Positions 7,688-59,728 of a stretch of DNA of 64,000 bases are shown here, piece by piece. The notes under the pieces were generated by a model. That model did not search any database. It was given only the letters and a program-made list of their open reading frames with translations, and was not told the origin of the DNA. Position numbers and translations under genes: made by a program. Source of the DNA: Porphyridium purpureum (lineage: Eukaryota); NCBI GenBank assembly GCA_008690995.1, contig VRMN01000002.1, forward strand, positions 1 through 64,000, written 5' to 3'. Positions within the stretch are counted from its first letter, which is position 1. The number at the start of each line of letters is the position of its first letter.

Positions 7688-7744
7688 CTTTGCTGATACA
7701 TAGGTACAGAGCTTAGGCCCTTTAGATTTATAATGTAAAACGAT

Positions 7745-9523: not shown

Positions 9524-9980
9524 ACTTGCGGCGAGCGTGGCGCGGGCGCAGCGGGGATTTCTTGCGGTGTGTCGGCTATGGAGAGGGCAGGTGACGACGA
9601 CCGTAGCGCTGGTGCGCATCCGGCTCTTGGGTGCATCGTGGCACAGCGCGATAAGGCGAACCAGATGCAGCAGGACCTAGAGGCGGCCGCGGTATGCCGC
9701 GGCTTGGTCGACACGGTCACGCAGTGCGTGGCACGGATGGCCGCTCTGGGAGGGGCGCGCGCTGACGGCATGCGCGCGGCCATGTGGTCGTATGCCTGCA
9801 GCCAAGCGGTGGAGATGCTTGCGGTCTCCTGGCTGAAGTGGAACAGCGCTGAGACGCGCCCACAGTGGCAGGCGCGCAGCCGGCCCGTCCCGTGCAGTGG
9901 GCTGACCCGGTAGTGGCGGCGCAAGCAACAGCGTCACGACCGCGCAGCTGGGCGGTGGTGGCGGCCGGCCACGGCTCGCC

Positions 9981-11594: not shown

Positions 11595-11916
11595 GACCCT
11601 GCATGTCCGGCCCGTTTGGGGCACAATGTTGGACTCAGGGGAAAATGACTCTGCTGCCACCCACGCCGGGCAGTCAGAGCAAAATGGGGCCTCCACAAGG
11701 GATGGCACATTGGACCAGCCACGGGCTGGAGGCGTGGGAAGCCTGCAGGGGCAGGCGGTGTCCATGCGACGCGTGACGCGGTCACAGACGCAGGCCCGCC
11801 AGGCCGTCTCCGAACCCGGCTTGGTCGCGGACCCAGCTGCGCGCGCGAAGCAGACGCGGACCGGGCAGCCAATGTGCCGGTGGACCGGGTCGCGCGCAGA
11901 GTGACCAGGCCGACTC

Positions 11917-14900: not shown

Positions 14901-15708
14901 TGTCGTCGCCGCACGCAGCGGCCTGGCTGGGCATGCCGTCCGGCACAGTGCTCGGTGGCATTCCGTGGTCACCAGCATTGGGCTGCGACACGTGGTTTGC
15001 AGCCGTGCGCCACTGCCTGGGCCTCCTGTGGCTGGCGTCACGAGCGCTGTGGGCCTCCGCTGCCCGGCCATTGTCCGTGGGACAACGGCCACGTGCAACG
15101 CGCCACTGGACGCACACGGCCACCATGCGCAAAACTGCGCAATGGGGCCGACCCGGTACGGCCGCCATGCCGCGGTCATTGACGTGCTCGTCCGCTTTGC
15201 AAACCTCCGCGGGCACAGGTCCGCCGCGAGGTTCGCCTCGAGGACGCACCCCGGCACAACGGGAAGCACGACCGGCGACTTTTCCTTCGACAACAATGTC
15301 GTCGATGTTGCCGTGGTCGCGCCAGACGGTCGCCGCTCGCGCTCGGAAGCGCGGCTCTTTGCCCGCTCGCGCTGCGGCACCAGTTGGCTGCTCGGGCCAC
15401 GCAGCCAACATGGTGGCCTTTATCGTCACCACGTACGGCAACGTGGATGCGCCCGCACGTGCGCTTCTTTCCGGCTCGCGCGCGACTTTGCTCGCGTGCG
15501 CCAGGTCCGCCCCGCTTGGGCGCTGACCGTCCTTTCGCGGGCTGTGTCCCTCGCTGTGTACCGCGCCGCCGCACATGGCATTCTTTTGCGGTACCCGGCG
15601 GGACACTCGGCCCTCACGGCGAGCGGGCTGCGCTGGCTCCCCCATGTGGCGCGAATGCTCAGCTCCTCTGACCCGAGCGCCCCAATTCACGAGGTCGGCG
15701 TCCTCTAA
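11917..15708 (+). pseudogene. Family B zinc finger-RT-RLE polyprotein, split by frameshifts
   Basis: Pieces 11917-13326, 13023-14840, 14717-~15050 and 14965-15708 are homologous along their length to the family A protein (LWAFPTLVLCLP, HLGAAARLVESAGVHD). Confidence 0.82.
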
Positions 15709-16682: not shown

Positions 16683-19100
16683 CTAGCAGCCTAGTCTTTC
16701 CAAACTACTCTGCGCCGCTGCGAATCCCTGGTCTGCGGCCTTGCGGTACCACTCGACCGCGGCGCGCTCGTCCTGCGGCAGCCCGCCCCACCCGTTCTCG
16801 TAATAACAGCCCAAATAGACCTGCGCCGCTGCGTACCTCTGCTCCGCGGCCTTCTGAAACCACTCGACCGCGGCGCGCTCGTCCTGCGGCAGCCCGCCCT
16901 CCCCTTTCAGGTAACAAACGCCCAAAAGAAACTGCGCGTTTGCGTCTCCCTGTTCCGCGGCCTTGCGAAACCACTCGACCGCGGCGCGCTCGTCCTGCGG
17001 CAGCCCGCCCTCCCCGTTCTTGTACCTAACGCCCAAATTATTCTGCGCCGCTGCGAGTCCCTGGTCTGCGGCCTTGCGGTACCACTCGACCGCGGCGCGC
17101 TCGTCCTGCGGCAGCCCGCCCTTCCCGTCCTTGTAACTAACGCCCAAATTATTCTGCGCCGCTGCGAATCCCTGGTCTGCGGCCTTGCGAAACCACTCGA
17201 CCGCGGCGCGCTCGTCCTGCGGCAGCCCGCCCGACCCATCCTCGTAACAAACGCCCAAATTATTCTGCGCCGCTGCGAATCCCTGGTCTGCGGCCTTGCG
17301 GTACCACTCGACCGCGGCGCGCTCGTCCTGCGGCAGCCCGCCCTCCCCGTTCTTGTAACAAACACCCAAATTGAACTGCGCTTCTGCGTCTCCCTGCTCC
17401 GCGGCCTTGCGAAACCACTCGACCGCGGCGCGCTCGTCCTGCGGCAGCCCGCCCTTCCCGTTCTTGTAACTAACGCCCAAATTGAACTGCGCCTCTGCGT
17501 CTCCCTGCTCCGCGGCCTTGCGGTACCACTCGACCGCGGCGCGAGTGTCCTGCGGCAGCCCGCCCTCCCCGTTCTTGTAACTAACGCCCAAATTGTACTG
17601 CGCGTGTGCGTTTCCCTGCTCCGCGGCCTTGCGAAACCACTCGACCGCGGCGCGAGTGTCCTGCGGCAGCCCGCCCTTCCCGTCCTTGTAACTAACGCCC
17701 AAATTATTCTGCGCCGCTGCGTGTCCCTGCTCCGCGGCCTTGCGAAACCACTCGACCGCGGCGCGCTCGTCCTGCGGCAGCCCGCCCTCCCCGTTCTCGT
17801 AACTAACGCCCAAATTATACTGCGCCGCTGCGAATCCCTGGTCTGCGGCCTTGCGAAACCACTCGACCGCGGCGCGCTCGTCCTGCGGCAGCCCGCCCCA
17901 TCCGTTCTCGTAACAAACGCCCAAATTGAACTGCGCGTGTGCGTTTCCCTGCTCCGCGGCCTTGCAGAAACCACTCGACCGCGGCGCGCCTGTCCTGCAG
18001 CCCGCCCTCCCCTTCAGGTAACAAACGCCCAAAAGAAACTGCGCGTTTGCGTCTCCCCTGTTCCGCGGCCTTGCGAAACCACTCGACCGCGCGCGCTCTG
18101 TCCTGCGGCAGACCGCCCTCTCGTAACCCAAATTAAACTGCGCCGCTGCGAGTCCCTGCTCCGCGGCCTTGCGGTACCACTCGACCGCGGCGCGCTCGTC
18201 CTGCGGCAGCCCGCCCTTCCCGTCCTTGTAACTAACGCCCAAATTGATTCTGCGCCGCTGCGGCCTTGCGGTACCACTCGACCGCGGCGCGCTCGTCCTG
18301 CGGCAGCCCGCCCTCTGCGGCGCCGCTTCCCTGCGAAACCACTCGACCGCGGCGCGCTCGTCCTGCGGCAGCCCGCCCGACCCATCCTCGTAACAAACGC
18401 CCAAATTATTCTGCGCCGCTGCGAATCCCTGGTCTGCGGCCTTGCGGTACCACTCGACCGCGGCGCGCTCGTCCTGCGGCAGCCCGCCCTCCCCGTTCTT
18501 GTAACAAACACCCAAATTGAACTGCGCTTCTGCGTCTCCCTGCTCCGCGGCCTTGCGAAACCACTCGACCGCGGCGCGCTCGTCCTGCGGCAGCCCGCCC
18601 TTCCCGTTCTTGTAACTAACGCCCAAATTGAACTGCGCCTCTGCGTCTCCCTGCTCCGCGGCCTTGCGGTACCACTCGACCGCGGCGCGAGTGTCCTGCG
18701 GCAGCCCGCCCTCCCCGTTCTTGTAACTAACGCCCAAATTGTACTGCGCGTGTGCGTTTCCCTGCTCCGCGGCCTTGCGAAACCACTCGACCGCGGCGCG
18801 CTCGTCCTGCGGCAGCCCGCCCTCCCCGTTCTTGTAACCAACGCCCAAATTATTCTGCGCCGCTGCGAATCCCTGGTCTGCAGCCTTGCGAAACCACTCG
18901 ACCGCGGCGCCCTCGTCCTGCGGCAGCCCGCCCCACCCGTTCTTGTAACTAACGCCCAAATTGAACTGCGCCTCTGCGTCTCCCTGGTCCGCGGCCGTGC
19001 GGTACCACTCGACCGCGGCGCGCTCGTCCTGCGGCAGCCCGCCCCACCCGCTCTCGTAGCAAACCCCAAACGACATTGAGCGTCTGCGTCTCCATGCTCA
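16683..19100 (-). CDS. Sel1-like repeat (SLR) array, ~21-22 units of 37 aa (111 bp); possibly a pseudogene or cassette
   Basis: Repeats AQ(F/N/Y)NLGVxYxxGxGGLPQDERAAVEW(Y/F)RKAA(E/D)QG. There is a frameshift near 19070 (EHGDADAQCRLG / FGVCYE) and indel-garbled units at ~17960-18330. Confidence 0.88.
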
Positions 19101-22593: not shown

Positions 22594-23775
22594 TCACGCA
22601 CACGTTAGTGTCGCACAATTATTGGAAAAAGAGCATGCCAGCGCAGAATAATTATTGAAGTAATCGCAATTCACGACATTTCGTACGTCCCAAGCCGCAA
22701 GGTCCTGATTGAAAGATTCGGCCACAGAAAACAGTAAGCCCATGTTTGTCACTCTGCTCACGTCCCAACCAAAAATATCTTGGTTGAAAGAAGCGGCGTT
22801 GTAAAACATGGCGGACATGTCAGTCACGTTGCTGACGTCCCAACCAGAAATATCCTGGTTAAAATGTACGGCCCAGTAAAACATATAGGACATGTCTGTC
22901 ACACTGCTGATGTTCCAGCCAGAAATATCCTGATCAAAAGAAGAGGCTTTCTGAAACATGGAGCGCATGTCTGTCACACTGCTGACGTCCCAGCCAGAAA
23001 TTTCCTGGTTGAAAGAAGAGGCTTTCTGAAACATGGAGCGCATGTCTGTCACACTGCTGACGTCCCAGCCAGAAATTTCCTGGTTGAAAGAAGCGGCGCC
23101 GCAAAACATGGAGCCCATGTTTGCCACACGGCTTACGTCCCACGAGCCAATCTCGCCGTTGAAGTTCGACCCCGCAAACATGCAGCTCAGATCGGTGACG
23201 CTGCGCGGAATGTTGGCGGGAAGACTCTGCAGTGAACGCACTTCAAAGAAAGCTGCATCCAATGTGGTCAGGCCGAGCTTACCCGACGAAGCCACACGAG
23301 CAATGCCGTCCATGAACCTGATTCCACCAAGACTTCCCGTGATCACGACTGCGTGCTCTCCTTGAGATTTGTAAGCATGTACGAATGTCCCCATGCTCCC
23401 GTACGTCGCTGCCGTTCCATCGCCGTTGTCGACCACGACGTCCACTGGCGAAGCAGAAAAATCCAACGATACCTCAGAAACGTCGTCGTACTCGAGCACC
23501 ATCTTCTCCTGGCTTTCGTCAGACTCGACGTATTTCAGGCAGGGCTGTAACGCGTAGTCGGGGAACCCACTGAGACACGTCGCGGAGATGGACGTGCAAG
23601 CGACCGGTCCTTCTGCGTCTGGAACCAGGCCCAGCGTTCCTTCCACCGAGCACGGGTCACTGAGCTCGACCACTCGGCAGATCTCCCGGGCAACCACATT
23701 GTAATACAAAGACAGCCTTGCTAGCAGCGCGATGGTCAAAGCCAAAGACCAAGCCAAAGGAAACATGAGCGTCAT
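22594..23775 (-). CDS. Secreted DUF285/BspA-like surface repeat protein
   Basis: Signal-like MFPLAWSLALTIALLA, a Cys-containing N-domain, PKD-like VDVVVDNGDG, and 25-aa repeats FNQEISGWDVSSVTDMRSMFQKASS. Confidence 0.88.
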   Translation of the reverse strand: MTLMFPLAWSLALTIALLARLSLYYNVVAREICRVVELSDPCSVEGTLGLVPDAEGPVACTSISATCLSGFPDYALQPCLKYVESDESQEKMVLEYDDVSEVSLDFSASPVDVVVDNGDGTAATYGSMGTFVHAYKSQGEHAVVITGSLGGIRFMDGIARVASSGKLGLTTLDAAFFEVRSLQSLPANIPRSVTDLSCMFAGSNFNGEIGSWDVSRVANMGSMFCGAASFNQEISGWDVSSVTDMRSMFQKASSFNQEISGWDVSSVTDMRSMFQKASSFDQDISGWNISSVTDMSYMFYWAVHFNQDISGWDVSNVTDMSAMFYNAASFNQDIFGWDVSRVTNMGLLFSVAESFNQDLAAWDVRNVVNCDYFNNYSALACSFSNNCATLTCA

Positions 23776-45364: not shown

Positions 45365-48300
45365 CTAGCAGGTCAAACCTCCATCACACGCACTAAAAGG
45401 CCCTGAAACAAAGTAACACTTCATCGGAGCCCTGACATTGAAATTGAAACACGTTCTGACACTGCCTACATCCCAGTTGGAGACGTCCTGGTCGAAAGCA
45501 CTAGCATTCTCAAACATGCCATCCATACTTCTCACATGACTCACTTCCCAGCCAGATATGTCCCAGTTGAAAGCACTAGAATTCTGAAACATATAGTGCA
45601 TACTCGTCACGCTAGACGTGTCCCAATTGCCAATATCTTGATTGAAAAAAGAATTCGCGAACATCATCCGCATGTCTCTCACGTTGGACGTATTCCATGT
45701 ACCAATATCTTGATTGAACAAAGAATCTGAGAACATTTTGCGCATGAATACCACGCCGGACGTGTCCCATGCGCCAATATTCTGATTGAACGAAGACTTA
45801 TAGAACATATTGCCCATGTCTGTCACGACGGATGTGTTCCATGCGCCAATGTATTGATTAAATGGAGAATACGCGAACATAGAGCGCATGTTCGTCACCC
45901 TGGACGTGTCCCACGAACCTATGAAATGATTGAACGGAGAAGACGTGAACATCTCGCGCATGTTTGTCACGCGAGACACGTCCCATTTCCCAATATCTTG
46001 GTTGAATAGAGACTCCTCGAATGTTCTGCTCATGAATATCACGCTGGACGTATTCCAGGCGCCAATATCTTGATTGAACGGAGACTTTGCGAATACAGAG
46101 CCCATGTCTGTCACGCTGGACGTGTCCCATGCGCCAATATATTGATTAAATGGGGAGTAGGCGAACATGGAGCGCATATTTGTCACTCTGGACGTGTCCC
46201 ACGCGCCAATATCTTCATTGAATGGAGAGTATGAGAAAATCTCGCGCATGTTTGTCACACTGAACGTGTTCCATGCGCCAATACTCTGATTGAACGAAGA
46301 ATACCAGAACATAGATTGCATGTTTGTCACGCTGGACGTGTCCCATGTGCCAATTTCTTGATTGAACGACGACTCCGCGAACATAAATCGCATATCTGCC
46401 ACACTTGACGTGTCCCATGCTCCAATATTTTGATTGAACGAAGATCTCGAGAACATAGCGCCCATGTCTGTCACGCTGGATGTGTTCCATGCACCAAGAT
46501 CTTGATTGTACGAAGAACACGCGAACGTCCCGCTCATGCCTCGCACACTACCCACATTCCAGCCAGATATATCCTGCTTGAAGATACTAACATTGTAGAA
46601 CATGCGGCTCATGTCCGTTACCCTTGAAACGTCCCACGCACCAATCTTCCGATTGAAGTTTGACGACGCAAACATTCTGCTCATATCTGTCACCCTCGAC
46701 ACGTCCCACATATGAATCTCTCCGTCAAAGTCTGCTCGCTCAAACATGCCGCTCAGATCTGTGACAGTGCGAGGTATGTCCGCGGGAACACTCTTTAGCG
46801 TCCTCACGCTCTGGAAAGCCCGACTCAATGTGGCTAGGCCAAGCTCGCCCCATGAACCCACACGAGTCAAGCCGTCCCTGAACCTGATTCCACCCAAACG
46901 TCCCGTGATCACGACGACATGGCTCCCCTCAGAGCTATACTCGTGCCTGAATTCCCCCATGCTCGTGTATGTCATTGCCGTTCCATCGCCATAGTCGACC
47001 ACAACGTCCACAGGCTGTGCAGAAAACTCCAAAGATACTGCAGAAACGTTTTCGTAATCGAGTACCATGTTCGAAAGTCCACAAGCCAAGCCTCCATCAC
47101 ACACATCAAGGGGCCCAGGGGCAAACGCACAATTCACGGCAGCTCCAAAGTCGAAAAGTTCACATGACTCGACCCGCCTTACATCCCAGCCATAGAGGTA
47201 CTGGTTAAAGGCACTCGCATTTTCAAACATGGAGTCCATGTTTGTCACGCTGGACGTATTCCATGCGATAATCTGTCGATTAAAGGACGAAAATGCGAAC
47301 ATCGCGCACATATCTGTCACGCTGGACGTGTCCCATGTGCCAATATCATGATTGAACGAAGAATTAAAGAACATATAGCCCATGTCTGTCACGGTGGACG
47401 TCTTCCACGCGCCAATATCTCGATTGAAGGAAGAGCCAAAGAACATATAGCCCATGTCTGTCACGCTGGACGTGTCCCACGTGCCAATATCTTGATTGAA
47501 AGAAGAAGAAGCGAACATCCCATTCATGTCTGTCACGCCAGACGTGTTCCACGTGCCAATTTCTTGATTGAACGAAGAACTGAAGAACAAATAGCCCATG
47601 TCTGTCACGCTGGACGTGTTCCACGCGCCAATATCTTGATTGAACGAAGAATACGCGAACATGCCGTGCATGTCTGTCACGCTGGACAAGTCCCAGCTGC
47701 CTATATCTCTACTAAAAGATGAGTTCTGAAACATAGCTTTCATGGTGGTCACCGTGGAAACGTCCCATGATTCAATATCTCCGCTGAAGCTTGACCCCGC
47801 AAACATGGCGCTGAGATTTGTGACCGTGCGCGGTATGTCGGCGGGAACATTTTGCAGTGAGCTCAAATCAGAGAAAGCCCCATTCAAAGTGGTCAGGCCG
47901 AGCTCGCCCCACGAAGCTACAGCAGCCAAGCCGTCCGTGAACCTGATTCCACCCAGACTTCCGGAGATTGCGACTTGATAGCTTCCCTGATGTCGGTATG
48001 TGTGCACAAACGTTCCCATGCTCGTGTGTGCCTTTACCATTCCGTCACCATAATCGACCGAAACGTCCACGGGCGGTTCAGAAAATTCCAAAGATACCTC
48101 AGAAACATCCTCATACTCGAGCACCATCTTCTGCTGGGTTTCCTCAGACTCGACGAATTTCTGGCAGGGCTGGAACGCGCAGTTGGGGAACCCGCTGAGA
48201 CATGTCGCGGGGACGGCCGCGCATGCAATCGCCCCTGCGGCGTCTGGAACCAGGGCCAGCATTCCCGCAGCCGAGCACGGTTCGATCTGCGTAACCCAAT

Positions 48301-48394
48301 GGCAGAGCTCCTGAGCAACCACAGTGGGCAACGAAGACCAGGTCGCAAGCAGCGCGATGGCCAAAGCCCAAGCCAAAGGAAACATTCGCGCCAT
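45365..48394 (-). CDS. Large secreted DUF285/BspA-like protein with two PKD+repeat modules
   Basis: Probable start MARMFPLAWALAIALLA (matches the 23775 paralog). Two modules, each VDYGDG..GSLGGIRF..DIPRTVT plus mostly 24-aa FNQDIGAWDTSSVTDM repeats. Confidence 0.9.
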   Translation of the reverse strand: MARMFPLAWALAIALLATWSSLPTVVAQELCHWVTQIEPCSAAGMLALVPDAAGAIACAAVPATCLSGFPNCAFQPCQKFVESEETQQKMVLEYEDVSEVSLEFSEPPVDVSVDYGDGMVKAHTSMGTFVHTYRHQGSYQVAISGSLGGIRFTDGLAAVASWGELGLTTLNGAFSDLSSLQNVPADIPRTVTNLSAMFAGSSFSGDIESWDVSTVTTMKAMFQNSSFSRDIGSWDLSSVTDMHGMFAYSSFNQDIGAWNTSSVTDMGYLFFSSSFNQEIGTWNTSGVTDMNGMFASSSFNQDIGTWDTSSVTDMGYMFFGSSFNRDIGAWKTSTVTDMGYMFFNSSFNHDIGTWDTSSVTDMCAMFAFSSFNRQIIAWNTSSVTNMDSMFENASAFNQYLYGWDVRRVESCELFDFGAAVNCAFAPGPLDVCDGGLACGLSNMVLDYENVSAVSLEFSAQPVDVVVDYGDGTAMTYTSMGEFRHEYSSEGSHVVVITGRLGGIRFRDGLTRVGSWGELGLATLSRAFQSVRTLKSVPADIPRTVTDLSGMFERADFDGEIHMWDVSRVTDMSRMFASSNFNRKIGAWDVSRVTDMSRMFYNVSIFKQDISGWNVGSVRGMSGTFACSSYNQDLGAWNTSSVTDMGAMFSRSSFNQNIGAWDTSSVADMRFMFAESSFNQEIGTWDTSSVTNMQSMFWYSSFNQSIGAWNTFSVTNMREIFSYSPFNEDIGAWDTSRVTNMRSMFAYSPFNQYIGAWDTSSVTDMGSVFAKSPFNQDIGAWNTSSVIFMSRTFEESLFNQDIGKWDVSRVTNMREMFTSSPFNHFIGSWDTSRVTNMRSMFAYSPFNQYIGAWNTSVVTDMGNMFYKSSFNQNIGAWDTSGVVFMRKMFSDSLFNQDIGTWNTSNVRDMRMMFANSFFNQDIGNWDTSSVTSMHYMFQNSSAFNWDISGWEVSHVRSMDGMFENASAFDQDVSNWDVGSVRTCFNFNVRAPMKCYFVSGPFSACDGGLTC

Positions 48395-49077
48395 TTCAAT
48401 CGCGTGCTGCGCCTTTCGACCACGGCGGGCAGCAGTGCGCCCGTCGCGGAATGCCCCTCCCCGTACGACCATAAAATTATTCACTCGATATCGTCAGTTG
48501 CGACCACCCACACACGCTCTTCTGCGCCGCCACATCTATTTCGTGCTCGTTATGTTCCGCCGCACCGCTCCACGGAATCCCGTCGCTTGGTGAGCACCTT
48601 GCCAGCCCGCTCGCGCCCAGCTACGCCCTCTTAAACCTCTGCGCCGGAGCGCGCGCAACATACCTGTCAGGCATGAGGGTGAATACAGCCAAACTCTCCA
48701 CGCGCGCATCGAATCCATTGCGAAACACATGCATCTCGCGCACACCGGTAACGCGCGTGTCCACCGCGCGCATCGGCAAAACCAGCCCGGAAAAGCGGAA
48801 CGCGGTGGGACCGCCAGCCAGCGTCACACGTTGTACTGCGTTCGTGCGTGCACGGCCGTTTGCGTGGAACGCGCGAGGTCGGCGCACGCAGGAACGCCAG
48901 CAGATGCGCACACTCGGCCAGCCGGCCACTCGTCCAATAAGCAGCCGCCGCGCGTCGAGATCAAGCTTTTGAATCGAGCCGCGCCGCGTTCACGCCGTTT
49001 GCGGCACGCTATGCGCAACAGGTGCATTTTAAACCGATTGTTACATGCCATACGTGGAAGTAAATACGGTTTTGGAC

Positions 49078-49538
49078 TGTAAGCACACTGTACACATCTC
49101 GTGTACCCACGTCGCACTGTACCAAGCGGTACACTGTACACGAGGAGTTCGGGTGTACAGCGTAAGTGCGTCACGGTAGCGCGACATTGGGGAGCGAGGT
49201 CTTCGAGTGTGGCACGGATTGGATGTCCGTGACTGGATCCATGAGGATCTTTCGAGGCCTCCTGGAGTGCATTCGCGGTCGGCGACCAGGGTCAGCCGAC
49301 ATCTCGAACCTATGCGGGTGTGATGCTCTTTGACCGGGAAGCGGGTCATAAAAGGCTGAGCAGCGCGGGCGCTGCGAGTGGAGTAGAACCTAGGTTCGAG
49401 GTAGAGACGTTGCAGGGTTGTGTAACAAGGGGTTTCTCGCCATTTACTGCGTCTCTCATTTGCTACCCCGTTCTACCTAAGGAATGCGCGCTGGGGTGCA
49501 CGCTATCTCGTACACCCATCAAAGTTATACTCATTACA
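49078..49538. mobile_element. Possible solo LTR
   Basis: TGTAA...TTACA termini and an internal CATAAAAGG. No TSD seen. Confidence 0.25.
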
Positions 49539-49599
49539 AAATGTAAATGAGAAGCTTTCCACCGAGCACCTGGCGTCCGCGACTACTGCCTTATCCCAC

Positions 49600-49627: not shown

Positions 49628-50222
49628 AGGACTTATTTGTTCACAACCGAGTTTTTACTGATCAGCCTGTCGTCAAACAAACCACGACCACTCCTTACCC
49701 GACCGTACTTAACCGCGACGAACGCTACCGATGACAACCGCTCTTAAATAGACCTTTGCTCATGCCACACTCGCTCGTCCGACAGCGGTGCACCTCAAAC
49801 ACGCACGTGCACACCTGCTCGACGCACTGTACTACACGTTTGCGCCAACACAAAGCTACCATATGGTGATGATGCAGGGCGGGAGAGTTGTGTCTGGTCA
49901 GCGCTTCGATCTTCACGTTTGGAATGTACACGCGGACGCGGGCGTCTTTCTAGACGCATTAAGCCACAAGTTAGCGCTAGGAATCTAGTCATGTCAACCG
50001 AATTTTTGCTCCTGCGTCTCGCTGTTCCGCGACGTTGCGCCACCACTCGAACGCCGCACGCTTGTCCCGCGGCAGCCCGCGCCGCCCGGTTCCGTGACAA
50101 AAGCCCTAATTAAATTGCGCCTTTGCGTGTCCCTGTTCCGCGGCCTTGATGTACCACACTATCGCTGCGCGCTGATCCTGCAGCAGCCCTCACCAAGCGT
50201 TCTCGAAATAAAGGGCCAACAT

Positions 50223-53200
50223 TTATTGCGCGTCCGCTTGTCCTTGCTCCGCGGCCTTGGTGTACCACTCGATCGCCGCGCCCGTATACTGTGGCAGTCC
50301 GCCCTCCCTGTTGCTGTAACACGGGCCAATATTAAACTGCGCCGCTGCGTGTCCCTGTTTGGCGGCCTTGGTGTACCAGTCGACCGCCGCGCGCTTGTCC
50401 TGCTTCAGCCCACCCCACCCGTTCTCGTAACACCAGCCCAAATTGTACTGGGCGTCTGCTCGTCCCTGCTTCGCAGCCTTGGTGTACCACTCGACCGCCG
50501 CGCGCTTGTCCTGCGCCAGCCCGCCCTCCCCGTATTGGTAACAAACGCCCAAATTATACTGCGCAGTTGCGTATCCCTGTTCCGCGGCCTTGCGGTACCA
50601 CTCGACCGCCGCGCGCTTGTCCTTGCGCAGCCCGCCCCACCCGTTTTCGTAGCAAAGGCCTAAATTACACTGTGCCCTAGCGTATCTCTGCTCCGCGGCC
50701 TTCCGGTACCATTCGACCGCCGCGCGCTTGTCCTGCGGCAGCCCGCCCTCCCCGTTCTCGTAACGAACGCCCAAATTAAACTGCGCCGTTGCGTGCCCCT
50801 GTTCCGCGGCCCTGCGGTACCATTCGGCCGCCGCGCGCTTGGTCTGCGGCAGCCCGCCCCACCCGTTGTCGTAGCAAACACCCAAATTAAACTGCGCCTC
50901 TGCGTGTCTCTGTTCCGCGGCCTTGGTGTACCACTCGACCGCCGCACGCTTGTCCTGCGGCAGCCCGCCCGCCCCTTTCATGCAACAAATTCCCAAATTA
51001 TTCTGCGCCGCTGCGTCTCCCTGTTCCGCGGCCCTGCGGTACCACTCGACCGCCACGGAATCGTCCTTGCGCGCACCGCCCAAACCCTTGTCATAAAAAT
51101 AGCCCAGCTTGAACTGCGAGTGGGCGTCTCCCACGTGCGCCGCCTTGCGGTACCACTCCAGCGCTGCCGTGAGGTTCTTGTTGAACTCTTCAATCTGGCC
51201 ACGTTGCGACCAGTCCGCGGCGTCGCGGCGTGCTTGTCGCTCTTCGGTCTCCAACGTCTTGAGCCTTTCGGGCCCCGCCGGGCTGCCGAGCTTCACGGCC
51301 TTTGCATACCGCTCCTTCGCAAGGCTCAAGTTCTGCGGCATTCCCCGCCCAGAGCGGTGGTAGCGACCATACTCAATCGTGGCATCCATGTGTTCTTGCT
51401 CAGCAGCTGCGCGAACCCAACGCGCGCCATGCTCCACCTGCTGGCCCATGCCGTGCGAGCCCTCAAGCAAAATCTCGCCCGGCCGGAACTGGCCTTGCGC
51501 GGCACCTGCTTCCGCTGCTAGCTTGAAATACTCATACACGTGCGCCATGTTTGCTGCTTTCTCCCGTCCTTCTGCGTAGTGGAGCTTATCATCAGCACTC
51601 AGCGATTGCGCTTGCACAGGCCGGGATCCACTTGGCTCCACCGAATAACCTCCGTTGCTTGATGATGGGGCTCCTGACCGACCAGATTCCACCGTAATCT
51701 GTGAAACGCTTGCAATCAATGCATCAATCTCTACCGTGCTCGCGCCGGAAGAGGATGCAATGGCAGAGACATAGGTCTGCTGCTTGCGAAATGTTACCAA
51801 TACTTCCGCCATGCTCGGGCGTTCTCGAGCATGCATTCTTAAGCATGCTTTGGCAGTGTCTATTAACCACGTCGGCCAGGCATTTGCGTATGCACTCTTC
51901 TTTAGTCTGTGCCACGGTACTCCCTTCGTCGGATCGCTGAGCGTCCTGTCGATTTCTGCCGATGTCGCCGAGCCAAACATGAGCTCGCCCAACACCATCT
52001 CATACAACATGACTCCGAACGACCACACGTCACAAGTCCGGTCATGCTTGTCACCACGCATGACCTCTGGCGCCATGTAAGCATCTGTGCCAGCTCTTGC
52101 TTTCGCACATGACCCGGTGTTCTTCACGGTTGCCAACCCAAAATCGCTGATCTTGGCTGTGTATTCCTCCGTGAGCAGAATATTCTGAGGCTTGATGTCT
52201 CGGTGGATCACTTTTGCAGAGTGCAGGTACTTGAGACCATTCACGATACCACCAAAGATATCCAAAAGCTGCGCGCGAGGCAGCACACCTTGCATACCAT
52301 TTCGAAACATATGTTTGTCCAGCGAGCCGTTTGCTGCGTATTCTAAAAGAATGAATGGCTTCCTGCGACGCTGTGCACCGCTCTCGAGAGGATAGAACCC
52401 ACCACGCGTTTGGATGATGTTCGTATGAGTGAGCCGCCACATGGTCCCAAGTTCGTTCTTCAGTTGAAAGAGCCCATCCATCGTGTCCGCCGGTACTTCC
52501 TTAATGGCCACCGTTGACCCAAAGCACGTGCCTTTGTAAACAATTCCGAAACCTCCAGAGCCCAGCACAACGTACTCGTCGAATTCGTCACGCTCTTTTC
52601 GGACATGCGACACGTCGACGTACCATGGCTCTGTTTTCGTGGGTCCGGTCGACAAGCCGCCGGAATTGCAAGCGTCTGTACACGGCTTGTGGATATCCAC
52701 ACGAAGACTGTGCATCTGAAGAATAGCGCTCTTCTCTGGTTCGGAACCAAGTTGCTCTTCGAGCTTGGGTCGATCATTGACCTTATCCTTCTCCAGAGCC
52801 ATAAGTATTTGCTGGTGTCTGCGTTCTTGCACGTGTTTGCCTCGTTTGTGAGAGTCCGCAAGCTTGAACAAAACGATGCGCGACAACTGAGCTTCGAGCT
52901 TGTCCAGCGTATCGCTGCAGGTCTGAAATTCGGCCTGGTAGTTTTTCGCCCTCATCACGCGCCAAACCTTCTCATTCCAGCGGTCTGCGGACGAGAACTT
53001 TTCCAGAAGCGAGCAGGTGGATTCGAGCGCGGACGTCAGATCCGCCAGGCACTCGAGCAGGCGACCGTGCTGCACCTGGTCTGTACCCGACCTTATCTTT
53101 TCGCCTTGGCCACCAAAATAATCAAGCAACACGCTCTCAATGCCGGCGGCCTGCTTTGCCAGCTGCTTACATGTGTCGTGCATGGCTCGCGCGGCCTGCG

Positions 53201-53339
53201 CCAGCTCCACGATGACCTTGATGACCGCGTACGCCGCCGCAACGTACGGCAAAACCTCGCCCACATCTTTGGCGATTGTTCCTCCGAGTTTGAGGGCTTC
53301 CTCACACGCCGCGTGCTCCGCTGCGCGGCCTGCCGCCAT
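50223..53339 (-). CDS. MLKL-like N-terminal helical bundle + TKL-type protein kinase + Sel1 repeats
   Basis: N-terminus LPYVAAAYAVIKVIVELAQAARAMHDTCKQLAKQ... Kinase motifs GSGGFG, VAIK, HRDIKPQN, DFG, APE and DVWSFG are intact. About 9 canonical plus 2-3 divergent SLRs follow. Confidence 0.88.
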   Translation of the reverse strand: MAAGRAAEHAACEEALKLGGTIAKDVGEVLPYVAAAYAVIKVIVELAQAARAMHDTCKQLAKQAAGIESVLLDYFGGQGEKIRSGTDQVQHGRLLECLADLTSALESTCSLLEKFSSADRWNEKVWRVMRAKNYQAEFQTCSDTLDKLEAQLSRIVLFKLADSHKRGKHVQERRHQQILMALEKDKVNDRPKLEEQLGSEPEKSAILQMHSLRVDIHKPCTDACNSGGLSTGPTKTEPWYVDVSHVRKERDEFDEYVVLGSGGFGIVYKGTCFGSTVAIKEVPADTMDGLFQLKNELGTMWRLTHTNIIQTRGGFYPLESGAQRRRKPFILLEYAANGSLDKHMFRNGMQGVLPRAQLLDIFGGIVNGLKYLHSAKVIHRDIKPQNILLTEEYTAKISDFGLATVKNTGSCAKARAGTDAYMAPEVMRGDKHDRTCDVWSFGVMLYEMVLGELMFGSATSAEIDRTLSDPTKGVPWHRLKKSAYANAWPTWLIDTAKACLRMHARERPSMAEVLVTFRKQQTYVSAIASSSGASTVEIDALIASVSQITVESGRSGAPSSSNGGYSVEPSGSRPVQAQSLSADDKLHYAEGREKAANMAHVYEYFKLAAEAGAAQGQFRPGEILLEGSHGMGQQVEHGARWVRAAAEQEHMDATIEYGRYHRSGRGMPQNLSLAKERYAKAVKLGSPAGPERLKTLETEERQARRDAADWSQRGQIEEFNKNLTAALEWYRKAAHVGDAHSQFKLGYFYDKGLGGARKDDSVAVEWYRRAAEQGDAAAQNNLGICCMKGAGGLPQDKRAAVEWYTKAAEQRHAEAQFNLGVCYDNGWGGLPQTKRAAAEWYRRAAEQGHATAQFNLGVRYENGEGGLPQDKRAAVEWYRKAAEQRYARAQCNLGLCYENGWGGLRKDKRAAVEWYRKAAEQGYATAQYNLGVCYQYGEGGLAQDKRAAVEWYTKAAKQGRADAQYNLGWCYENGWGGLKQDKRAAVDWYTKAAKQGHAAAQFNIGPCYSNREGGLPQYTGAAIEWYTKAAEQGQADAQ

Positions 53340-53967: not shown

Positions 53968-54764
53968 CTTGGAATTTCTCCCTCTCCGCTTTGTAACCGA
54001 ATCAACAAAACCGGACCGCTTCACCGATAACAGGAACTGGAAACCACCACACCCCGGAAACTGACAAACCGATGACGAACCGACACACCGAAACGAACGG
54101 AAGGACAAGCAGGACAATCAGAGAAAAGTGGCTAGAAAGGAAGAGAGGACAGAAAATTCAACTTATAGGGGACTACGAGAGGGAGTGGACCGGTCTTGAC
54201 AAGTGAAGGGTGATGGAAGGTACGTTTAAACCCCAGCTGCCTTTTTAAAAACACTCCAGACCGATATCCGCTCGCACAACACGCTAGCGTGCCTCTCCCG
54301 CAAATCCAACCCAAGTCTTCCAACGACTGCCTCAATCCAACTAACCAATTCTCTTTTTATTCTATTTGCCCTTACCTCTTCTTCTACCTTGACCTGGAAA
54401 TTCCTGGGAACCAGCTTGCCCCTTCGTCCTTTTATACCCTTCGTCCTTGCTCTTTCCAGCAAGGACGGGAGAACAAATTTCTCCAACAGGACGAATTTCC
54501 ACCACAGGTTTTGATTCGTTCCACAACTCGCAACCACAGCCGGCCACGTATCCGAAAAATGGCCGGGAAGGCGCGTCAAGAACGAATCCAGAAGCTTCGG
54601 CCGGCCTTTGACCTTTGCACAAGGTCACACAAAACGACAATGACAAACATTTCGCAGGTCCGAGATCATCACGCTTCTCGAACAATCTTTCATCATAGAA
54701 CTTTCTAGGGTTTTGTACTCAAAACCCTACGGCGTCTCTCGGGGCGGAACCCTAAAATTCCACG
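53968..54764 (-). repeat. 3' LTR
   Basis: Core TGGAATTT...AATTCCA at 53970-54762 plus shared flanking CT and CG dinucleotides. Confidence 0.93.
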
Positions 54765-57700
54765 CTCCTCCTTCCGGTCTGAGGGACGCGTAACTTCTCC
54801 CAGCACTTAATGTGGCCCTCCGGAAATAAGGCCTTGGTCATTAAGTCCGCCACATTTTCGTCCGTCTTCACAAATGCCAGTTTCACAAGTTTCTGCTTTT
54901 CGCACACCTGATGCAACCAGGCCAAATCTGTTGCTCGGGTTATCGCCATATGATGCAACTTTGGCGAGTACCCCATCTCTATTGCTCGCATCACAGCTTG
55001 ATTGTCACACATCAAAATCACCGAGAACTCTCCGTCACGTATACTTCGCAAGAAAGACAATGCAGGAAACAACGAGAGTTGCACAGTTTCCTCTAGGGCG
55101 GCCAGCTCCGACTCTGAAGTCGACGAGCTCACGAAACGCTGCTTTCTTGAAGACCAATCCACTAGGTACTTGTAATCTCCAGCAACTAAGTACGTTGCTC
55201 TTCCAGAAGTCGACACACGACTCTCTGGACAACCAGCAAAGTCAGCATCCGTGTATCCAAGAATGTTCACCCCTCTGATGCCTTCCTTGAGATTCCCCAA
55301 CACGTGATACTCCAATGCTTCCCGAGGTGTTTTCAAATACTGCACGACTCGTACGAGCAGCCTTTCTGCTGCCACATTCCACTTGTCAACGTACCGGGCA
55401 ATCATACCGACTGCATACGCAATATCAGGTCGAACCGTTCTGGCGAGCCACATCAGCCTCCCGACGTGTTCTCTTACTTTCAAAGTCTTCCAGATGACTT
55501 GATAATTCAGAACTTCCTCGCCATCTAGCTTCTCAGATGGTGACTTCACGGCACGCAATACGCGTCTAATATCCTGCTCAAATTCCCGAATGACCACATC
55601 TTGATACTCTTGATTCGCCAAACTCACGCTCCCATTTTTGAGGGAAATGCTCGTCCCCAGGAATCTCAAGGATCCTCCTTCCGTCAATAGTTCTGGTGCT
55701 TTTTCTATGAGAAACTCTTGTTTCAATTCTTCGATGATTCCTGGGCGTTCCTCCTCTCGACAGGCTAATAGACCATCATCCACGTACAGAGCCAACAACG
55801 CAACTGACGAACTTGCAGCATTTCTCCGGACGTACACATTCTTTTCACCATGCACGAGCTTCCACTGGAACTTTTGCAATCTCCTCCGAGCATCTTGTGA
55901 GAAATCCGAGCCGCTCCTGGGCAAGCCATACAGCGCCTTTCTCAGCCTGACTACTGTGTCTTTTGAATCACAAATTTCACGCGGTAAGTATGCAAACGTA
56001 GGTGGCCCAGACAGGTCCGCATGGAGGTATGCCGAGCTGATGTCGAAACTAACAATCTGAAGGCCCAGAATTGCAGCCACAGCTATTATCATTCGGATAG
56101 CTGACAAACCAGCAGGCGTCTCATAATCAAAAATGTCATTCGTCGCAGCTCCATCGGACCCCCATATCCTGTTTCCCCCGGCCACCAAGCGGCACTTCAC
56201 CTTGCGAAATTCTTCCGGCATCTCAGCAAATTTCAGACCGAAAATGAAATGTGTGCGTACGAAACGAGCACCAGGTTGCCTCCGGGCCTCCTCCAGCGTC
56301 AAGGGATTCTCATCCCATACCCCAAATCTCAGCATGGATTTGACTTCTTTTTCCATCGCGGCTCGTCCTTGCTCAGACGCTAACGCCGCTCCAGTTTTCA
56401 GCAAAGTCGTTAAGTTCAACTGTGGGATCGTCACTGGACCACCCGTGCCTGCTGCCCGTTCCTCGTCAACCACTCTCACTTTCAATGCCTCGATCTCTTT
56501 CTCAAGCTCCGCTTCTCGAGCTCTGAGAGCATCGATACGACGATCCAAGTCCTGCACCGCTTCAACCGCGGATGGTTCGTCCACTTCTGGCAACTCTTCC
56601 TGCTGGCTCAGGCTCACCATCTCTCGTTCAATTCCCTTTAAAGGGAACTCATGGGTAAATGCCTTAAAATCCTGAGTGCGAATTACTTTTGGGGTCTCAC
56701 TCGTCCAGTCATCCCGAGGAAGCACCAAAATTGCCATCGGATGCTCTCCAACGCCGACGAGAATGCCAACTTTTCCTCGCGGTGCATACTTATTGTCAGG
56801 CTGATCATCTTTGTAGACCACCTTGCACCCGAATGGCAAACTAAGATTTCTCGGCGACCATTTTTCACCACGTCGTAATTCAAACGGCGTCTTTCCAGAC
56901 TTCCTGCCCACGTGAAGTCTATTCGTCATGAACGCAAAATGCTGCGCGGCGTGCATGAACCAACGCTTCCCGAGTCCGGCCTGCACAAGATTCGCACGGA
57001 TTCCCTGATTCAGCGTGTGGTGAAACCGCTCCTGTTCAGCATGACTGTTTGGCCTGTACGGAATCCCCACCTCGTGCTTTATGAGGTGTTCACGCACCAG
57101 TCTCCCCACATCTCCCTTGAACTCATTCCCATCATCCGTTCGCAAAACCTTCGGCCATCCTCTCCCGGCTTGCACACTTTTCCAAGCGTCCGCAACCGCC
57201 GTGTGGGTTTTCGCACGTAGCCCCGCCAATGTCACCCATCCTGTGGCTCTGTCGATATGCGTCAAAATAAACTTTGAACCATCTACCGACTTCACATTTC
57301 GCCCAGGCTCCACCAAGTCAATTCCGACTTCATCATTGAATGACAATGCACTGACATCTTTCTCCAGCCTTCGGGCCGGGCGTCGCTTTATCTTCGCCAC
57401 GACACACGTCTCACAGTCTCTTTGCATAGGCATGTGAGTCAACTCGTGTTCCGAAGCAGCCACGCTCTGATTTTTCCCGTCAAGCTCGGGAACCACTTCT
57501 TCAACATTTTCCAACGTGCATATTTCCTTCCCCTCGGGCCTCGTTTCCATCAGTCCCTTCTGCCAATCAATCTTAGGATTCACCATCTTGAGCCATTTCC
57601 ACCCTAAGATGGCATCCATACGAATGGGACCGATATAAAACTCGACGTTCCCTATCCAGAAACCGAGGTCCACCGCAAGCACAATGGGGCCGTGCACCTT

Positions 57701-57964
57701 CATTCTCTGTCCTCCCGCAAGCTCGACCATGCATTCATCGCAACTGGACTTTACGCTTGCGTCCAAGAATCGGGACCCCAGGAAATTATGCGACGCTCCA
57801 CTGTCAATCAAGAAGTCGATTTTTGAACCACTCACTTTCCCATGTTTGTAGAAGAGCCTTGACCTCGCACCCTCGTGCGCAACACCTTCCACAACACCCA
57901 TTACAGGAGGCTCCATTCCCCTCGAGATCTCCTCCTGTCTTGGCTCTCGAGGTCTTAGTTTTCC
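54752..57964 (-). CDS. pol: Pol: protease-integrase-reverse transcriptase-RNase H (Copia order), entered by -1 frameshift
   Basis: FLIDSGASHNF; HELTHMP..CETC; LRTDDGNEF..EQERF; FDISSAYL, LRKALYGL, LYVDDG; YTDADFAG, CDNQA, ADLMTKAL. The frame is open upstream of ATG 57916 through the gag stop. Confidence 0.93.
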   Translation of the reverse strand, partial: GKLRPREPRQEEISRGMEPPVMGVVEGVAHEGARSRLFYKHGKVSGSKIDFLIDSGASHNFLGSRFLDASVKSSCDECMVELAGGQRMKVHGPIVLAVDLGFWIGNVEFYIGPIRMDAILGWKWLKMVNPKIDWQKGLMETRPEGKEICTLENVEEVVPELDGKNQSVAASEHELTHMPMQRDCETCVVAKIKRRPARRLEKDVSALSFNDEVGIDLVEPGRNVKSVDGSKFILTHIDRATGWVTLAGLRAKTHTAVADAWKSVQAGRGWPKVLRTDDGNEFKGDVGRLVREHLIKHEVGIPYRPNSHAEQERFHHTLNQGIRANLVQAGLGKRWFMHAAQHFAFMTNRLHVGRKSGKTPFELRRGEKWSPRNLSLPFGCKVVYKDDQPDNKYAPRGKVGILVGVGEHPMAILVLPRDDWTSETPKVIRTQDFKAFTHEFPLKGIEREMVSLSQQEELPEVDEPSAVEAVQDLDRRIDALRAREAELEKEIEALKVRVVDEERAAGTGGPVTIPQLNLTTLLKTGAALASEQGRAAMEKEVKSMLRFGVWDENPLTLEEARRQPGARFVRTHFIFGLKFAEMPEEFRKVKCRLVAGGNRIWGSDGAATNDIFDYETPAGLSAIRMIIAVAAILGLQIVSFDISSAYLHADLSGPPTFAYLPREICDSKDTVVRLRKALYGLPRSGSDFSQDARRRLQKFQWKLVHGEKNVYVRRNAASSSVALLALYVDDGLLACREEERPGIIEELKQEFLIEKAPELLTEGGSLRFLGTSISLKNGSVSLANQEYQDVVIREFEQDIRRVLRAVKSPSEKLDGEEVLNYQVIWKTLKVREHVGRLMWLARTVRPDIAYAVGMIARYVDKWNVAAERLLVRVVQYLKTPREALEYHVLGNLKEGIRGVNILGYTDADFAGCPESRVSTSGRATYLVAGDYKYLVDWSSRKQRFVSSSTSESELAALEETVQLSLFPALSFLRSIRDGEFSVILMCDNQAVMRAIEMGYSPKLHHMAITRATDLAWLHQVCEKQKLVKLAFVKTDENVADLMTKALFPEGHIKCWEKLRVPQTGRRSVEF
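54765..54775 (-). other. Polypurine tract
   Basis: GGAAGGAGGAG on the minus strand, directly before the 3' LTR. Confidence 0.8.
57903..57964 (-). promoter_or_regulatory. -1 ribosomal frameshift signal (slippery G_GAA_AAC plus H-type pseudoknot)
   Basis: GGAAAAC-TAAGA-CCTCGAGA-GCCAAG-ACAGGAGG-AGA-TCTCGAGG-GGAATGGAG-CCTCCTGT, giving two perfect 8-bp interleaved stems. Confidence 0.82.
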
Positions 57965-58932
57965 GGCTCTGGCGGACCACCTGCCAAGCGCTCCTTCAAT
58001 TTAGGGCATTTGGGCTTAATGTGTCCACGTTCTCCACAATGGTAACACTTCACTTTGGTCTTGCCAGACTTCCGCTTGTCCATGGCTCCCAAATCCATTG
58101 GTGCGCTACCAGAATGCGACGAGAACGCCCTGCTATGAGTCGATGACGAGTTCTTGATCACTTGACTCATATCTCCTCCGAACTTTGCAACCTGCTCAGC
58201 TGCCAACGCAACTTTCAGTGATTCTTCCAAGGTCCTTGTGTCCTGACGGGCCACCTCAATACGCAGTTTCTCCTTCAAGCCCAGCGTGAAGATGGTGTTC
58301 AGTTCTGCATCTGTCACATCTTCAACTGACAACGCTGTCATCCTGAGATTCTGCTCAAATTCTGCGACCGTCATTTTCCCTTGCTTCAACTGATACAGAT
58401 TGGTGCGCGCTGTCAAATGCGCCTGCGGCGGCTCAAACGCTGTGCGCACGAAGTTTGCGAACGCATCCCATCCGGCCTCTGCAAGGCCCTTTCTCTGCTC
58501 CTCCGGACGAGCTGCCCAAAGCAGCGCTGCGTCCCTCTCGAAAAAGCGACTTGCAACAATCACTTTCTGCGAGTCCAAAGCACCTGCGGGCATGCAGATA
58601 TCCAGGTCGCTCTTCATTCGCATCAGCCATTCATTGACAACGAGCTTGTCACGCTGACCATCAAACTTTCTCAAACTGCGCCCAATTAACGCGGCCATGG
58701 CACGATCGTTGTCACCAGACCCAGACGCCACGGTCTGCTGGCGCAACAAAACTTGCATCATTTCATGGAGGTTACGATTCGCTTCCTGCACTTGTGCCAT
58801 CATCATCTCCTGTCCCGCAATGCGCGCATGCAGCTGATTAGCTGCCTCAATCCATGCCGCATTCTCCTGCGGGACATTCATTTCCATTTCATGGCTTTCC
58901 ATTCTCTCCAAACAACCGGGCGATGATACCAC
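57955..58932 (-). CDS. gag: Gag, Ty3/gypsy type, with CCHC knuckle
   Basis: FDG..EWL, LYQLKQGKMTVAEF, FTLGLKEKLR, SAPMDLG and CYHCGERGHIKPKC. The first ATG is somewhat downstream of 58932. Confidence 0.9.
   Translation of the reverse strand: MVSSPGCLERMESHEMEMNVPQENAAWIEAANQLHARIAGQEMMMAQVQEANRNLHEMMQVLLRQQTVASGSGDNDRAMAALIGRSLRKFDGQRDKLVVNEWLMRMKSDLDICMPAGALDSQKVIVASRFFERDAALLWAARPEEQRKGLAEAGWDAFANFVRTAFEPPQAHLTARTNLYQLKQGKMTVAEFEQNLRMTALSVEDVTDAELNTIFTLGLKEKLRIEVARQDTRTLEESLKVALAAEQVAKFGGDMSQVIKNSSSTHSRAFSSHSGSAPMDLGAMDKRKSGKTKVKCYHCGERGHIKPKCPKLKERLAGGPPEPEN
58914..58931 (-). other. Primer binding site, initiator-Met tRNA type
   Basis: TGGTATCATCGCCCGGTT directly after the 5' LTR, with the same layout as the plant iMet PBS TGGTATCAGAGCCAGGTT. 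Confidence 0.85.
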
Positions 58933-59728
58933 TTGGAATTTCTCCCTCTCCGCTTTGTAACCGAATCAACAAAACCGGACCGCTTCACCGATAACAGGAA
59001 CTGGAAACCACCACACCCCGGAAACTGACAAACCGATGACGAACCGACACACCGAAACGAACGGAAGGACAAGCAGGACAATCAGAGAAAAGTGGCTAGA
59101 AAGGAAGAGAGGACAGAAAATTCAACTTATAGGGGACTACGAGAGGGAGTGGACCGGTCTTGACAAGTGAAGGGTGATGGAAGGTACTTTTAAACCCCAG
59201 CTGCCTTTTTAAAAACACTCCAGACCGATATCCGCTCGCACAACACGCTAGCGTGCCTCTCCCGCAAATCCAACCCAAGTCTTCCAACGACTGCCTCAAT
59301 CCAACTAACCAATTCTCTTTTTATTCTGTTTGCCCTTACCTCTTCTTCTACCTTGACCTGGAAATTCCTGGGAACCAGCTTGCCCCTTCGTCCTTTTATA
59401 CCCTTCGTCCTTGCTCTTTCCAGCAAGGACGGGAGAACAAATTTCTCCAACAGGACGAATTTCCACCACAGGTTTTGATTCGTTCCACAACTCGCAACCA
59501 CAGCCGGCCACGTATCCGAAAAATGGCCGGGAAGGCGCGTCAAGAACGAATCCAGAAGCTTCGGCCGGCCTTTGACCTTTGCACAAGGTCACACAAAACG
59601 ACAATGACAAACATTTCGCAGGTCCGAGATCATCACGCTTCTCGAACAATCTTTCATCATAGAACTTTCTAGGGTTTTGTACTCAAAACCCTACGGCGTC
59701 TCTCGGGGCGGAACCCTAAAATTCCACG
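58932..59728 (-). repeat. 5' LTR
   Basis: Near-identical to 53968-54764. Confidence 0.93.

What the first reader, a model, noticed from the sequence alone, without database searches (positions are those of the whole stretch)
50223..53339. MLKL-like bundle + active kinase + Sel1 sensor: candidate one-protein immune or cell-death receptor
Seen: an N-terminal ~150-aa amphipathic helical domain, a kinase with all catalytic motifs, and homogeneous Sel1 repeats. Known: MLKL (4HB plus pseudokinase), RPW8 and HeLo domains disrupt membranes, and fungal NLRs use highly conserved variable repeats as sensors. Inference: an NLR-like effector-switch-sensor layout with a kinase replacing the NTPase. The MLKL_NTD call is by eye.
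Basis: partly seen in the sequence, partly recalled or inferred. Interest (0 to 1): 0.75.

Follow-up and report, generated by a model that had tools for sequence, protein, structure and literature searches.

The report
Red-algal MLKL-kinase-Sel1 receptor family
A single-celled red alga carries an expanded gene family that joins a domain predicted to fold like the cell-death executioner of MLKL, a kinase with all catalytic motifs and a variable tail of Sel1 repeats, which would likely make each protein a self-contained defence receptor; this particular copy has a premature stop and a decaying repeat block.

Summary
Confirmed: a 1038-aa ORF (50223-53339, minus) with helical N-domain, kinase with all catalytic motifs, and Sel1 repeats. 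Close paralogs are named Porphyridium purpureum. The MLKL call survives testing, short of proof: Pfam MLKL_N E=3e-5 (below cut-off), 10 of 11 family N-domains hit it, and an AlphaFold model overlays MLKL 1-122 (Z 12, rmsd 2.4 A, tied with unrelated bundles). I saw 16 Porphyridium-type family sequences plus one from Erythrolobus; Sel1 matches range 2-12; 5 of 17 lack kinase motifs. It has no NTPase, so it is not an NLR but a Pm13/R3AK-type MLKL-kinase fusion with a repeat tail; look-alike kinase-Sel1 proteins are abundant in Mucoromycota and noted in print. Killing by the bundle is untested (about 40%); kinase-as-output and non-immune roles remain open. My paper searches showed no red-algal report. 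The scan earlier noted a different ROCO-MLKL protein in a protist.

The parts
50223..53339 (-). ORF, 1038 aa: 4HB-brace-kinase-Sel1 protein (P0001)
   Evidence: exact sequence is in public protein collections
53256..53339 (-). N-terminal extension (aa 1-28) ahead of the MLKL-aligned region; predicted helix 3-18 at low confidence
   Evidence: model pLDDT <50 for aa 1-22; model residue 30 aligns to MLKL residue 1
52854..53255 (-). MLKL_NTD-like four-helix bundle (aa 29-162); first helix aa 29-47 is hydrophobic (Kyte-Doolittle 1.84 over 19 aa)
52710..52853 (-). helical brace-like connector (aa 163-210)
   Evidence: predicted helices 124-197 and 203-210; 'brace' is an inference from position
51798..52574 (-). 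Ser/Thr-type RD protein kinase with all catalytic motifs (aa 256-514)
   Evidence: family profile's best solved kinase matches were EGFR, IRAK4 and B-Raf
51609..51773 (-). Ser/Gly-rich linker (aa 523-577), predicted disordered
51240..51599 (-). first, divergent Sel1-like block (aa 581-700), decaying in this copy
   Evidence: 24 of 108 scored sites derived here versus 2 of 108 in paralog P0002
50238..51125 (-). eight complete 37-aa Sel1 repeats (aa 739-1034)
49980..50237 (-). premature TAA (50223-50225) inside repeat 9, then two dead Sel1 repeats with three stops in all and a C-terminal cap remnant
   Evidence: identical in contigs of X1, X2, X13
53968..59728 (-). young LTR retroelement ending about 630 bp upstream of the ATG (context, not part of the protein)
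   Evidence: 797-bp LTRs 99.75% identical; Gag and Pol ORFs

Best explanation
The gene is one member of an expanded Porphyridiales family that fuses a predicted MLKL-type four-helix bundle, an intact-motif kinase and a variable Sel1 tail, and the family likely works as self-contained intracellular defence receptors. Shown: the domain order, kinase motifs, family expansion, repeat-number variation and the lesions in this copy. Predicted: the MLKL-type fold and a membrane-grade hydrophobic first helix. Inferred, untested: the Sel1 solenoid binds a foreign or modified-self ligand through variable residues on helix A; binding changes kinase/brace conformation or autophosphorylation, the proteins oligomerise, and the hydrophobic first helix is released into a membrane to cause ion flux or cell death, collapsing the RIPK3-MLKL relay into one chain. 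This copy itself is probably a decaying one at its sensor end.
For: Fold: model residues 30-162 align to MLKL 1-122, Z 12.0, rmsd 2.4 A, 118 residues, ranks 1-2 of 48,161 chains; Foldseek TM 0.62-0.68 by target length for 6 MLKL rows, the highest values among the rows shown; AtMLKL3 Z 10.6, Rx-CC 9.3, NRG1 CC-R 9.2 also listed. Sequence: 10 of 11 family N-domains hit MLKL_N at E<=0.1; Atlas top hit 0.94, cluster with MLKL_N in 36% of members. First helix KD >=1.5 in 13 of 16 sequences. Family shows birth and death: 16 Porphyridium-type sequences + 1 Erythrolobus; Sel1 stretches 2-12 among the 9 with a Pfam Sel1 hit; 5 of 17 lack kinase motifs. Repeat variation sits at the same positions in independent sets (Spearman 0.59-0.77). 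Precedent: wheat R3AK, 4HB + intact-motif kinase, kills through its first helix (10.64898/2026.08.07.743466, abstract and passages).
Against: No functional data. MLKL_N scores stay under the curated cut-off (24.1 < 27); Foldseek E-values were not significant (best MLKL 0.099) and IncA and p150glued tie with MLKL in Z; the tool warns Z<13 is common for helical bundles. Cbl-N (Z 10.9), DUF7792 (7 of 11) and PUB10_N (2 of 11) also match, and these are not known killers (recalled). An extra ~28-aa extension precedes helix 1; for fungal domains with such an extension the authors withhold a killing claim (10.1101/2022.03.16.484565 section 10). In Pm13 the 4HB alone did not kill and the brace-kinase did (PMC11297308 passages). 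pN/pS at the eight variable repeat positions was 0.47/0.52 in this gene, not above 1, and the positions were picked after the fact.
Confidence: 0.4

Rival explanations
1. Pm13-like logic: still a defence receptor, but the four-helix bundle is an autoinhibitory or decoy domain and the kinase is the output, phosphorylating downstream targets.
For: Kinase motifs are intact in 12 of 17 family sequences; in Pm13 only Brace-Kinase122-476 killed, dependent on kinase function (PMC11297308 passages); the extension ahead of helix 1 could mask it.
Against: The first helix is strongly hydrophobic in most members, more than a soluble decoy needs; a separate repeat tail already offers a sensor.
Confidence: 0.25
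2. A non-immune signalling kinase family: the bundle is an adaptor of the Cbl-N/PUB/DUF7792 kind, the Sel1 tail a scaffold, and the expansion largely neutral duplication in repeat-rich DNA.
For: Matches to Cbl TKB, DUF7792 and PUB10_N; no excess of nonsynonymous change shown; window is rich in retroelements and duplicated genes; in Rhizophagus, kinase and Sel1-like families are enriched next to Mutator-like elements and highly methylated (PMC8647823 passages).
Against: The family predates the Porphyridium/Erythrolobus split, N-domain and kinase remain conserved while the repeats turn over, and members are transcribed.
Confidence: 0.25
3. The N-domain is a generic helical bundle with only chance likeness to MLKL.
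For: Sub-threshold Pfam scores; Z ties with IncA and p150glued; profile search of PDB sequences found no MLKL at E<=10; phmmer over 1.84 billion representatives found only 7 proteins, all from the two algae.
Against: Sequence profile, language-model features and predicted fold all point to the same family; the structural match is end to end (MLKL 1-122) at rmsd 2.1-2.6 A, tighter than IncA (2.8-3.2 A); position before a brace and kinase is the MLKL layout.
Confidence: 0.1

Closest known systems
Plant MLKL_NTD-kinase fusion proteins: wheat/Aegilops Pm13 (PMC10951266, PMC11297308) and R3AK (10.64898/2026.08.07.743466)
   Same: N-terminal four-helix bundle, helical brace, kinase with intact catalytic residues; multi-copy families; immune cell-death function shown for those proteins.
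   Different: They lack a C-terminal repeat tail (Pm13 is 476 aa); R3AK needs a partner NLR; Pm13's kinase is an RLK-family one and plant kinases fell outside the Porphyridiales group in my tree; the algal protein has a ~28-aa extension before helix 1.
Glomeromycotina/Mucoromycota MLKL-family kinase-Sel1 proteins (PMC8778642; expansions in PMC8647823)
   Same: Kinase + Sel1 in expanded families; Atlas top hit for the whole protein is a 1012-aa kinase-Sel1 cluster of 777 members, mostly Mucoromycota, score 0.98; top hit for the N-domain is a Mucoromycota cluster with MLKL_N in 36%.
   Different: Function unknown there too; no fungal sequence was retrieved by sequence search (listing, 42, 57), so homology of whole proteins versus parallel assembly is untested; I could not confirm that single fungal proteins hold all three domains.
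Animal MLKL and Arabidopsis AtMLKLs
   Same: 4HB-brace-kinase-fold order; best structural match of the N-domain.
   Different: Those are pseudokinases activated by upstream components; no repeats.
Fungal NLRs with HeLo-like/Goodbye-like/MLKL_NTD N-termini and conserved repeats
   Same: Effector-switch-repeat order; extra N-terminal helix as in basidiomycete MLKL-likes; framework-plus-variable-site repeats.
   Different: No NACHT/NB-ARC domain; repeats are Sel1 at about 81% DNA identity.

Membership tests
MLKL_NTD / 4HB superfamily | Pfam MLKL_N match at the curated cut-off (27 bits) | tested here: not met
   best 24.2 bits, E 2.7e-5; 10 of 11 members hit at E<=0.1
MLKL_NTD / 4HB superfamily | four-helix bundle superposable on MLKL 1-122 | tested here: met
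   predicted model only: Z 11.8-12.3, rmsd 2.1-2.5 A, 100-119 residues; tied with IncA
MLKL_NTD / 4HB superfamily | membrane-permeabilising N-terminal helix | not testable with these tools
   helix aa 29-47 is hydrophobic; activity needs experiment
MLKL-kinase fusion proteins (Pm13/R3AK type) | 4HB + brace + kinase retaining catalytic residues | tested here: met
MLKL-kinase fusion proteins (Pm13/R3AK type) | kinase from the plant RLK/Pelle group (orthology) | tested here: inconclusive
   11 algal kinases form one group (99/99) apart from 8 plant kinases, but Pm13 and R3AK were not in the tree
MLKL-kinase fusion proteins (Pm13/R3AK type) | triggers immune cell death; oligomerises on activation | not testable with these tools
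Animal MLKL / AtMLKL | pseudokinase domain | tested here: not met
   VAIK, HRD, DFG, APE all present
NLR (STAND) receptors | central NACHT/NB-ARC NTPase | tested here: not met
   no such family among the 8 Pfam hits at E<=1; the centre is a kinase
Fungal highly conserved repeat sensors | near-identical repeats with a few sites under positive selection | tested here: inconclusive
   77-85% DNA identity; pN 0.47 at 8 variable sites vs 0.09 elsewhere, but pS 0.52 at those sites
Glomeromycotina MLKL-family kinase-Sel1 proteins | common descent of N-domain and kinase with the fungal proteins | not tested
   only feature-level look-alikes; no fungal sequences were retrieved

The most novel reading that the evidence does not exclude
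A unicellular red alga runs a necroptosis-like defence from single-chain receptors in which a shuffled Sel1 sensor and an active kinase directly license an MLKL-type pore-forming bundle, the same design as thousands of unexplained kinase-Sel1 genes of arbuscular mycorrhizal fungi; together they would be an NTPase-free counterpart of NLRs spanning distant eukaryotes.
Probability: 0.3. Interest if true: 0.8.

Novelty: new variant of a known kind. Interest (0 to 1): 0.52.

Why it matters
If the family kills or signals on ligand binding, it would show lytic, MLKL-type immunity in a unicellular red alga and give a first function to a very large, unexplained class of kinase-Sel1 genes in mycorrhizal fungi. 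Porphyridium is culturable and the family is small enough to test, which AM fungi are not. If the bundle is inert, the finding is a lineage-specific kinase family with a decaying copy at this locus.

Tried and rejected
No whole genome was held for this window, so the paralog count comes from protein databases and is a floor. Sequence searches of PDB with the N-domain or its family profile gave no MLKL match. No N-domain relatives in metagenome contigs (0 of 377 pattern matches), viral contigs (0 of 43) or prokaryotic genomes (0 of 59): no sign of a recent bacterial or viral donor at this sensitivity. The full-length model was uninformative for domain contacts (pTM 0.40; kinase mostly pLDDT <50). 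Positive selection on repeats was not shown. 'Assembly error' for the premature stop was rejected. 'Whole-gene pseudogene' was not adopted: N-domain plus kinase carry 16 derived changes of 404 scored sites against 24 of 108 in the first Sel1 block (Fisher p 2e-8; P0002 control 5 of 404 vs 2 of 108, p 0.64), and RNA-library contigs match this copy. The source name 'Secretory immunoglobulin A-binding protein EsiB' on paralogs is an automatic Sel1 transfer. Ten paper searches (only the top 20 listed where 35-609 papers matched) showed no report of this family in red algae; 10.64898/2026.04.11.717937 (passages) and PMC6811547 (passages; no 'Sel1' or 'kinase' in main text) did not bear on it.

Full report
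Observation. The interval is one open frame on the minus strand, 53339 to 50223, 1038 aa, present letter for letter in public collections. Pfam gives Pkinase aa 256-514 (E 2e-52), nine Sel1 stretches (E 5e-87) and a weak MLKL_N match at aa 81-156 (E 4.8e-4). The kinase has GSGGFG, VAIK, the helix-C glutamate E296, HRDIKPQN, DFG and APE; 'active' is inferred from motifs only. Paralogs 90-94% identical over the N-terminal region are named Porphyridium purpureum by their sources, so the window is very likely from this unicellular red alga.

Is the N-domain MLKL-like? Three lines agree. (a) Profiles: the isolated domain scores 24.1 bits against MLKL_N (E 2.8e-5; cut-off 27) and 10 of 11 family N-domains hit MLKL_N at E<=0.1, 7 of 11 DUF7792, 2 of 11 PUB10_N. 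(b) Language-model features of aa 1-200: best clusters 0.94, the first with MLKL_N in 36% of members, mostly Mucoromycota, the next Basidiomycota. (c) An AlphaFold2 model from 7 sequences (mean pLDDT 75.5; the other four models 50-64) is a four-helix bundle. Against 48,161 PDB representatives the first two rows are human and mouse MLKL (Z 12.0, rmsd 2.4 A, 118 residues, model 30-162 on chain 1-122; Z 11.8, rmsd 2.1 A), tied with IncA and p150glued (11.7), then Cbl-N 10.9, AtMLKL3 10.6, Rx-CC 9.3, NRG1 CC-R 9.2 (similar, where IncA ties for first). Foldseek gave no E<=0.001, but MLKL rows had the highest target-normalised TM, 0.62-0.68; fungal MLKL-likes were reported at 0.51-0.64 (10.1101/2022.03.16.484565 section 10; normalisation may differ). 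Against: helical bundles reach such Z by chance, and sequence searches of PDB found no MLKL. I put an MLKL-type fold at 85-90%. The helix that aligns with MLKL helix 1 (aa 29-47) has Kyte-Doolittle mean 1.84; 13 of 16 family sequences have a window >=1.5 in their first 63 residues. About 28 residues precede it, as in basidiomycete MLKL-likes, for which killing is unproven.

The family. Searches returned 16 distinct Porphyridium-type sequences including this one, and one from an Erythrolobus australicus transcriptome. phmmer of aa 1-210 over 1.84 billion representatives found 7 proteins at E<=0.001, all from these two algae. Twelve of 17 keep HRD, DFG and APE; five are truncated or altered. Pfam Sel1 stretches range from 2 to 12 among the nine scanned proteins with a Sel1 hit, and a charged coiled-coil insert between the two Sel1 blocks is present in some and absent in P0001 and P0006. 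Eleven algal kinase domains form one group (99/99) against 8 plant kinases and 4 presumed bacterial ones (my label, from domain content), chosen from the 120 listed hits; no fungal kinase was available.

The repeats. Eight complete 37-aa repeats lie at aa 739-1034; repeats 2-7 are 77-85% identical in DNA. Over 55 repeats, variation concentrates at positions 2, 5, 9, 10, 12, 13, 15 and 37, reproducibly between independent sets (Spearman 0.59-0.77). Positions 2, 5, 9, 12-13 follow one face of helix A, which lines the binding groove in TPR-like solenoids (recalled). pN there is 0.47 against 0.09 elsewhere, but pS is 0.52, so diversifying selection is not shown.

This copy is damaged at its sensor end. 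The stop falls at position 5 of a ninth repeat; two dead repeats with three stops and a remnant of the cap seen in paralogs follow. The first Sel1 block (aa 581-700) has 24 derived changes in 108 scored sites, including three W to R and two to proline, against 2 in P0002; N-domain plus kinase have 16 of 404 against 5. Contigs from X1, X2 and X13 match these regions with no differences. An LTR element with 99.75% identical LTRs ends about 630 bp upstream; any effect on expression is unknown.

Expression. Raw RNA reads of X23 and X24 cover the gene patchily (depth up to about 20), nearly all in the orientation expected for a minus-strand RNA, and carry other letters at diagnostic sites (e.g. 16 of 16 reads at 52836-52837); by hand these give K168T, R173H and L112V, as in P0002. 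Those runs also differ at neighbouring genes (47 of 47 reads at 43646), so they are another strain and show only that close family members are transcribed. RNA-library run X13 has contigs identical to this copy at 49648-50302, 51144-51527 and 51607-52023 (depth 6-10) and nothing over intergenic 48686-49539, part of which X1 and X2 do cover. Low-level transcription of this copy is likely, though contigs cannot show strand or exclude DNA.

Mechanism. Best model (0.40): Sel1 tail senses, kinase/brace switches, the bundle's hydrophobic first helix attacks a membrane. Precedent is wheat R3AK, a 4HB plus intact-motif kinase that kills through helix 1 and oligomerises (abstract and passages). Rival (0.25): Pm13 logic, where the 4HB alone did not kill and brace-kinase did (passages). 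Rival (0.25): non-immune adaptor kinase family expanded by drift. Rival (0.10): chance fold likeness. All functional steps are inferred.

Comparison and novelty. It is not an NLR (no NTPase) and not a pseudokinase MLKL. 4HB-brace-active kinase is established in plants (PMC10951266 passages: 714 MLKL_NTD-kinase proteins retrieved). A Sel1 tail on MLKL-family proteins is noted in one sentence for Glomeromycotina, 'no clear function' (PMC8778642 passages), and the Atlas's best match to the whole protein is a 777-member, 1012-aa Mucoromycota kinase-Sel1 cluster (0.98; another kinase-Sel1 cluster is mostly Parabasalia). Sel1 proteins are already tabulated as potential pathogen receptors in a red seaweed (PMC12115072 passages); HeLo/4HB background is from PMC10197012 (passages). 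None of my ten paper searches listed a red-algal MLKL-kinase-Sel1 family. The scan's notes held no look-alike by sequence and one different ROCO-MLKL protein from a protist (unchecked).

Verdict. Real feature; a new variant of MLKL-kinase fusion proteins in a lineage where I found none reported, with fungal look-alikes and no tested function; this locus is a truncated, partly decayed member, so intact paralogs are the better test objects. Interest 0.52.

Noticed in passing
window 16683-19076 (-): A second Sel1 array of about 21 repeats of the same type (88% mean DNA identity among 13 distinct units, with exact block duplications), garbled at about 17960-18320, with no kinase or N-domain remnant elsewhere in the window.
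   Followed up: partly
window 53968-59728 (-): Young LTR retroelement: 797-bp LTRs 99.75% identical; Gag matches Retrotrans_gag/Ty3_capsid while Pol matches protease and the Copia-type RVT_2 with RT toward the C-terminus; its LTR end is heavily covered by RNA reads that run on into other sequence.
   Followed up: partly
window 45365-48484 (-) and 22594-23775 (-): Putative secreted DUF285 (BspA-like) repeat proteins with PKD domains, another repeat family in the same neighbourhood.
   Followed up: no
window 1-15000: GC-rich (63-69%) tandem copies of non-LTR retrotransposon-like ORFs, 2.56 kb duplicated at 98.8%, suggesting a repeat-rich or subtelomeric setting.
   Followed up: no
protein P0128 (172 aa) and P0125, P0126: Family members annotated as N-domain only or N-domain plus kinase fragment; could be pseudogenes or stand-alone bundles.
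   Followed up: no
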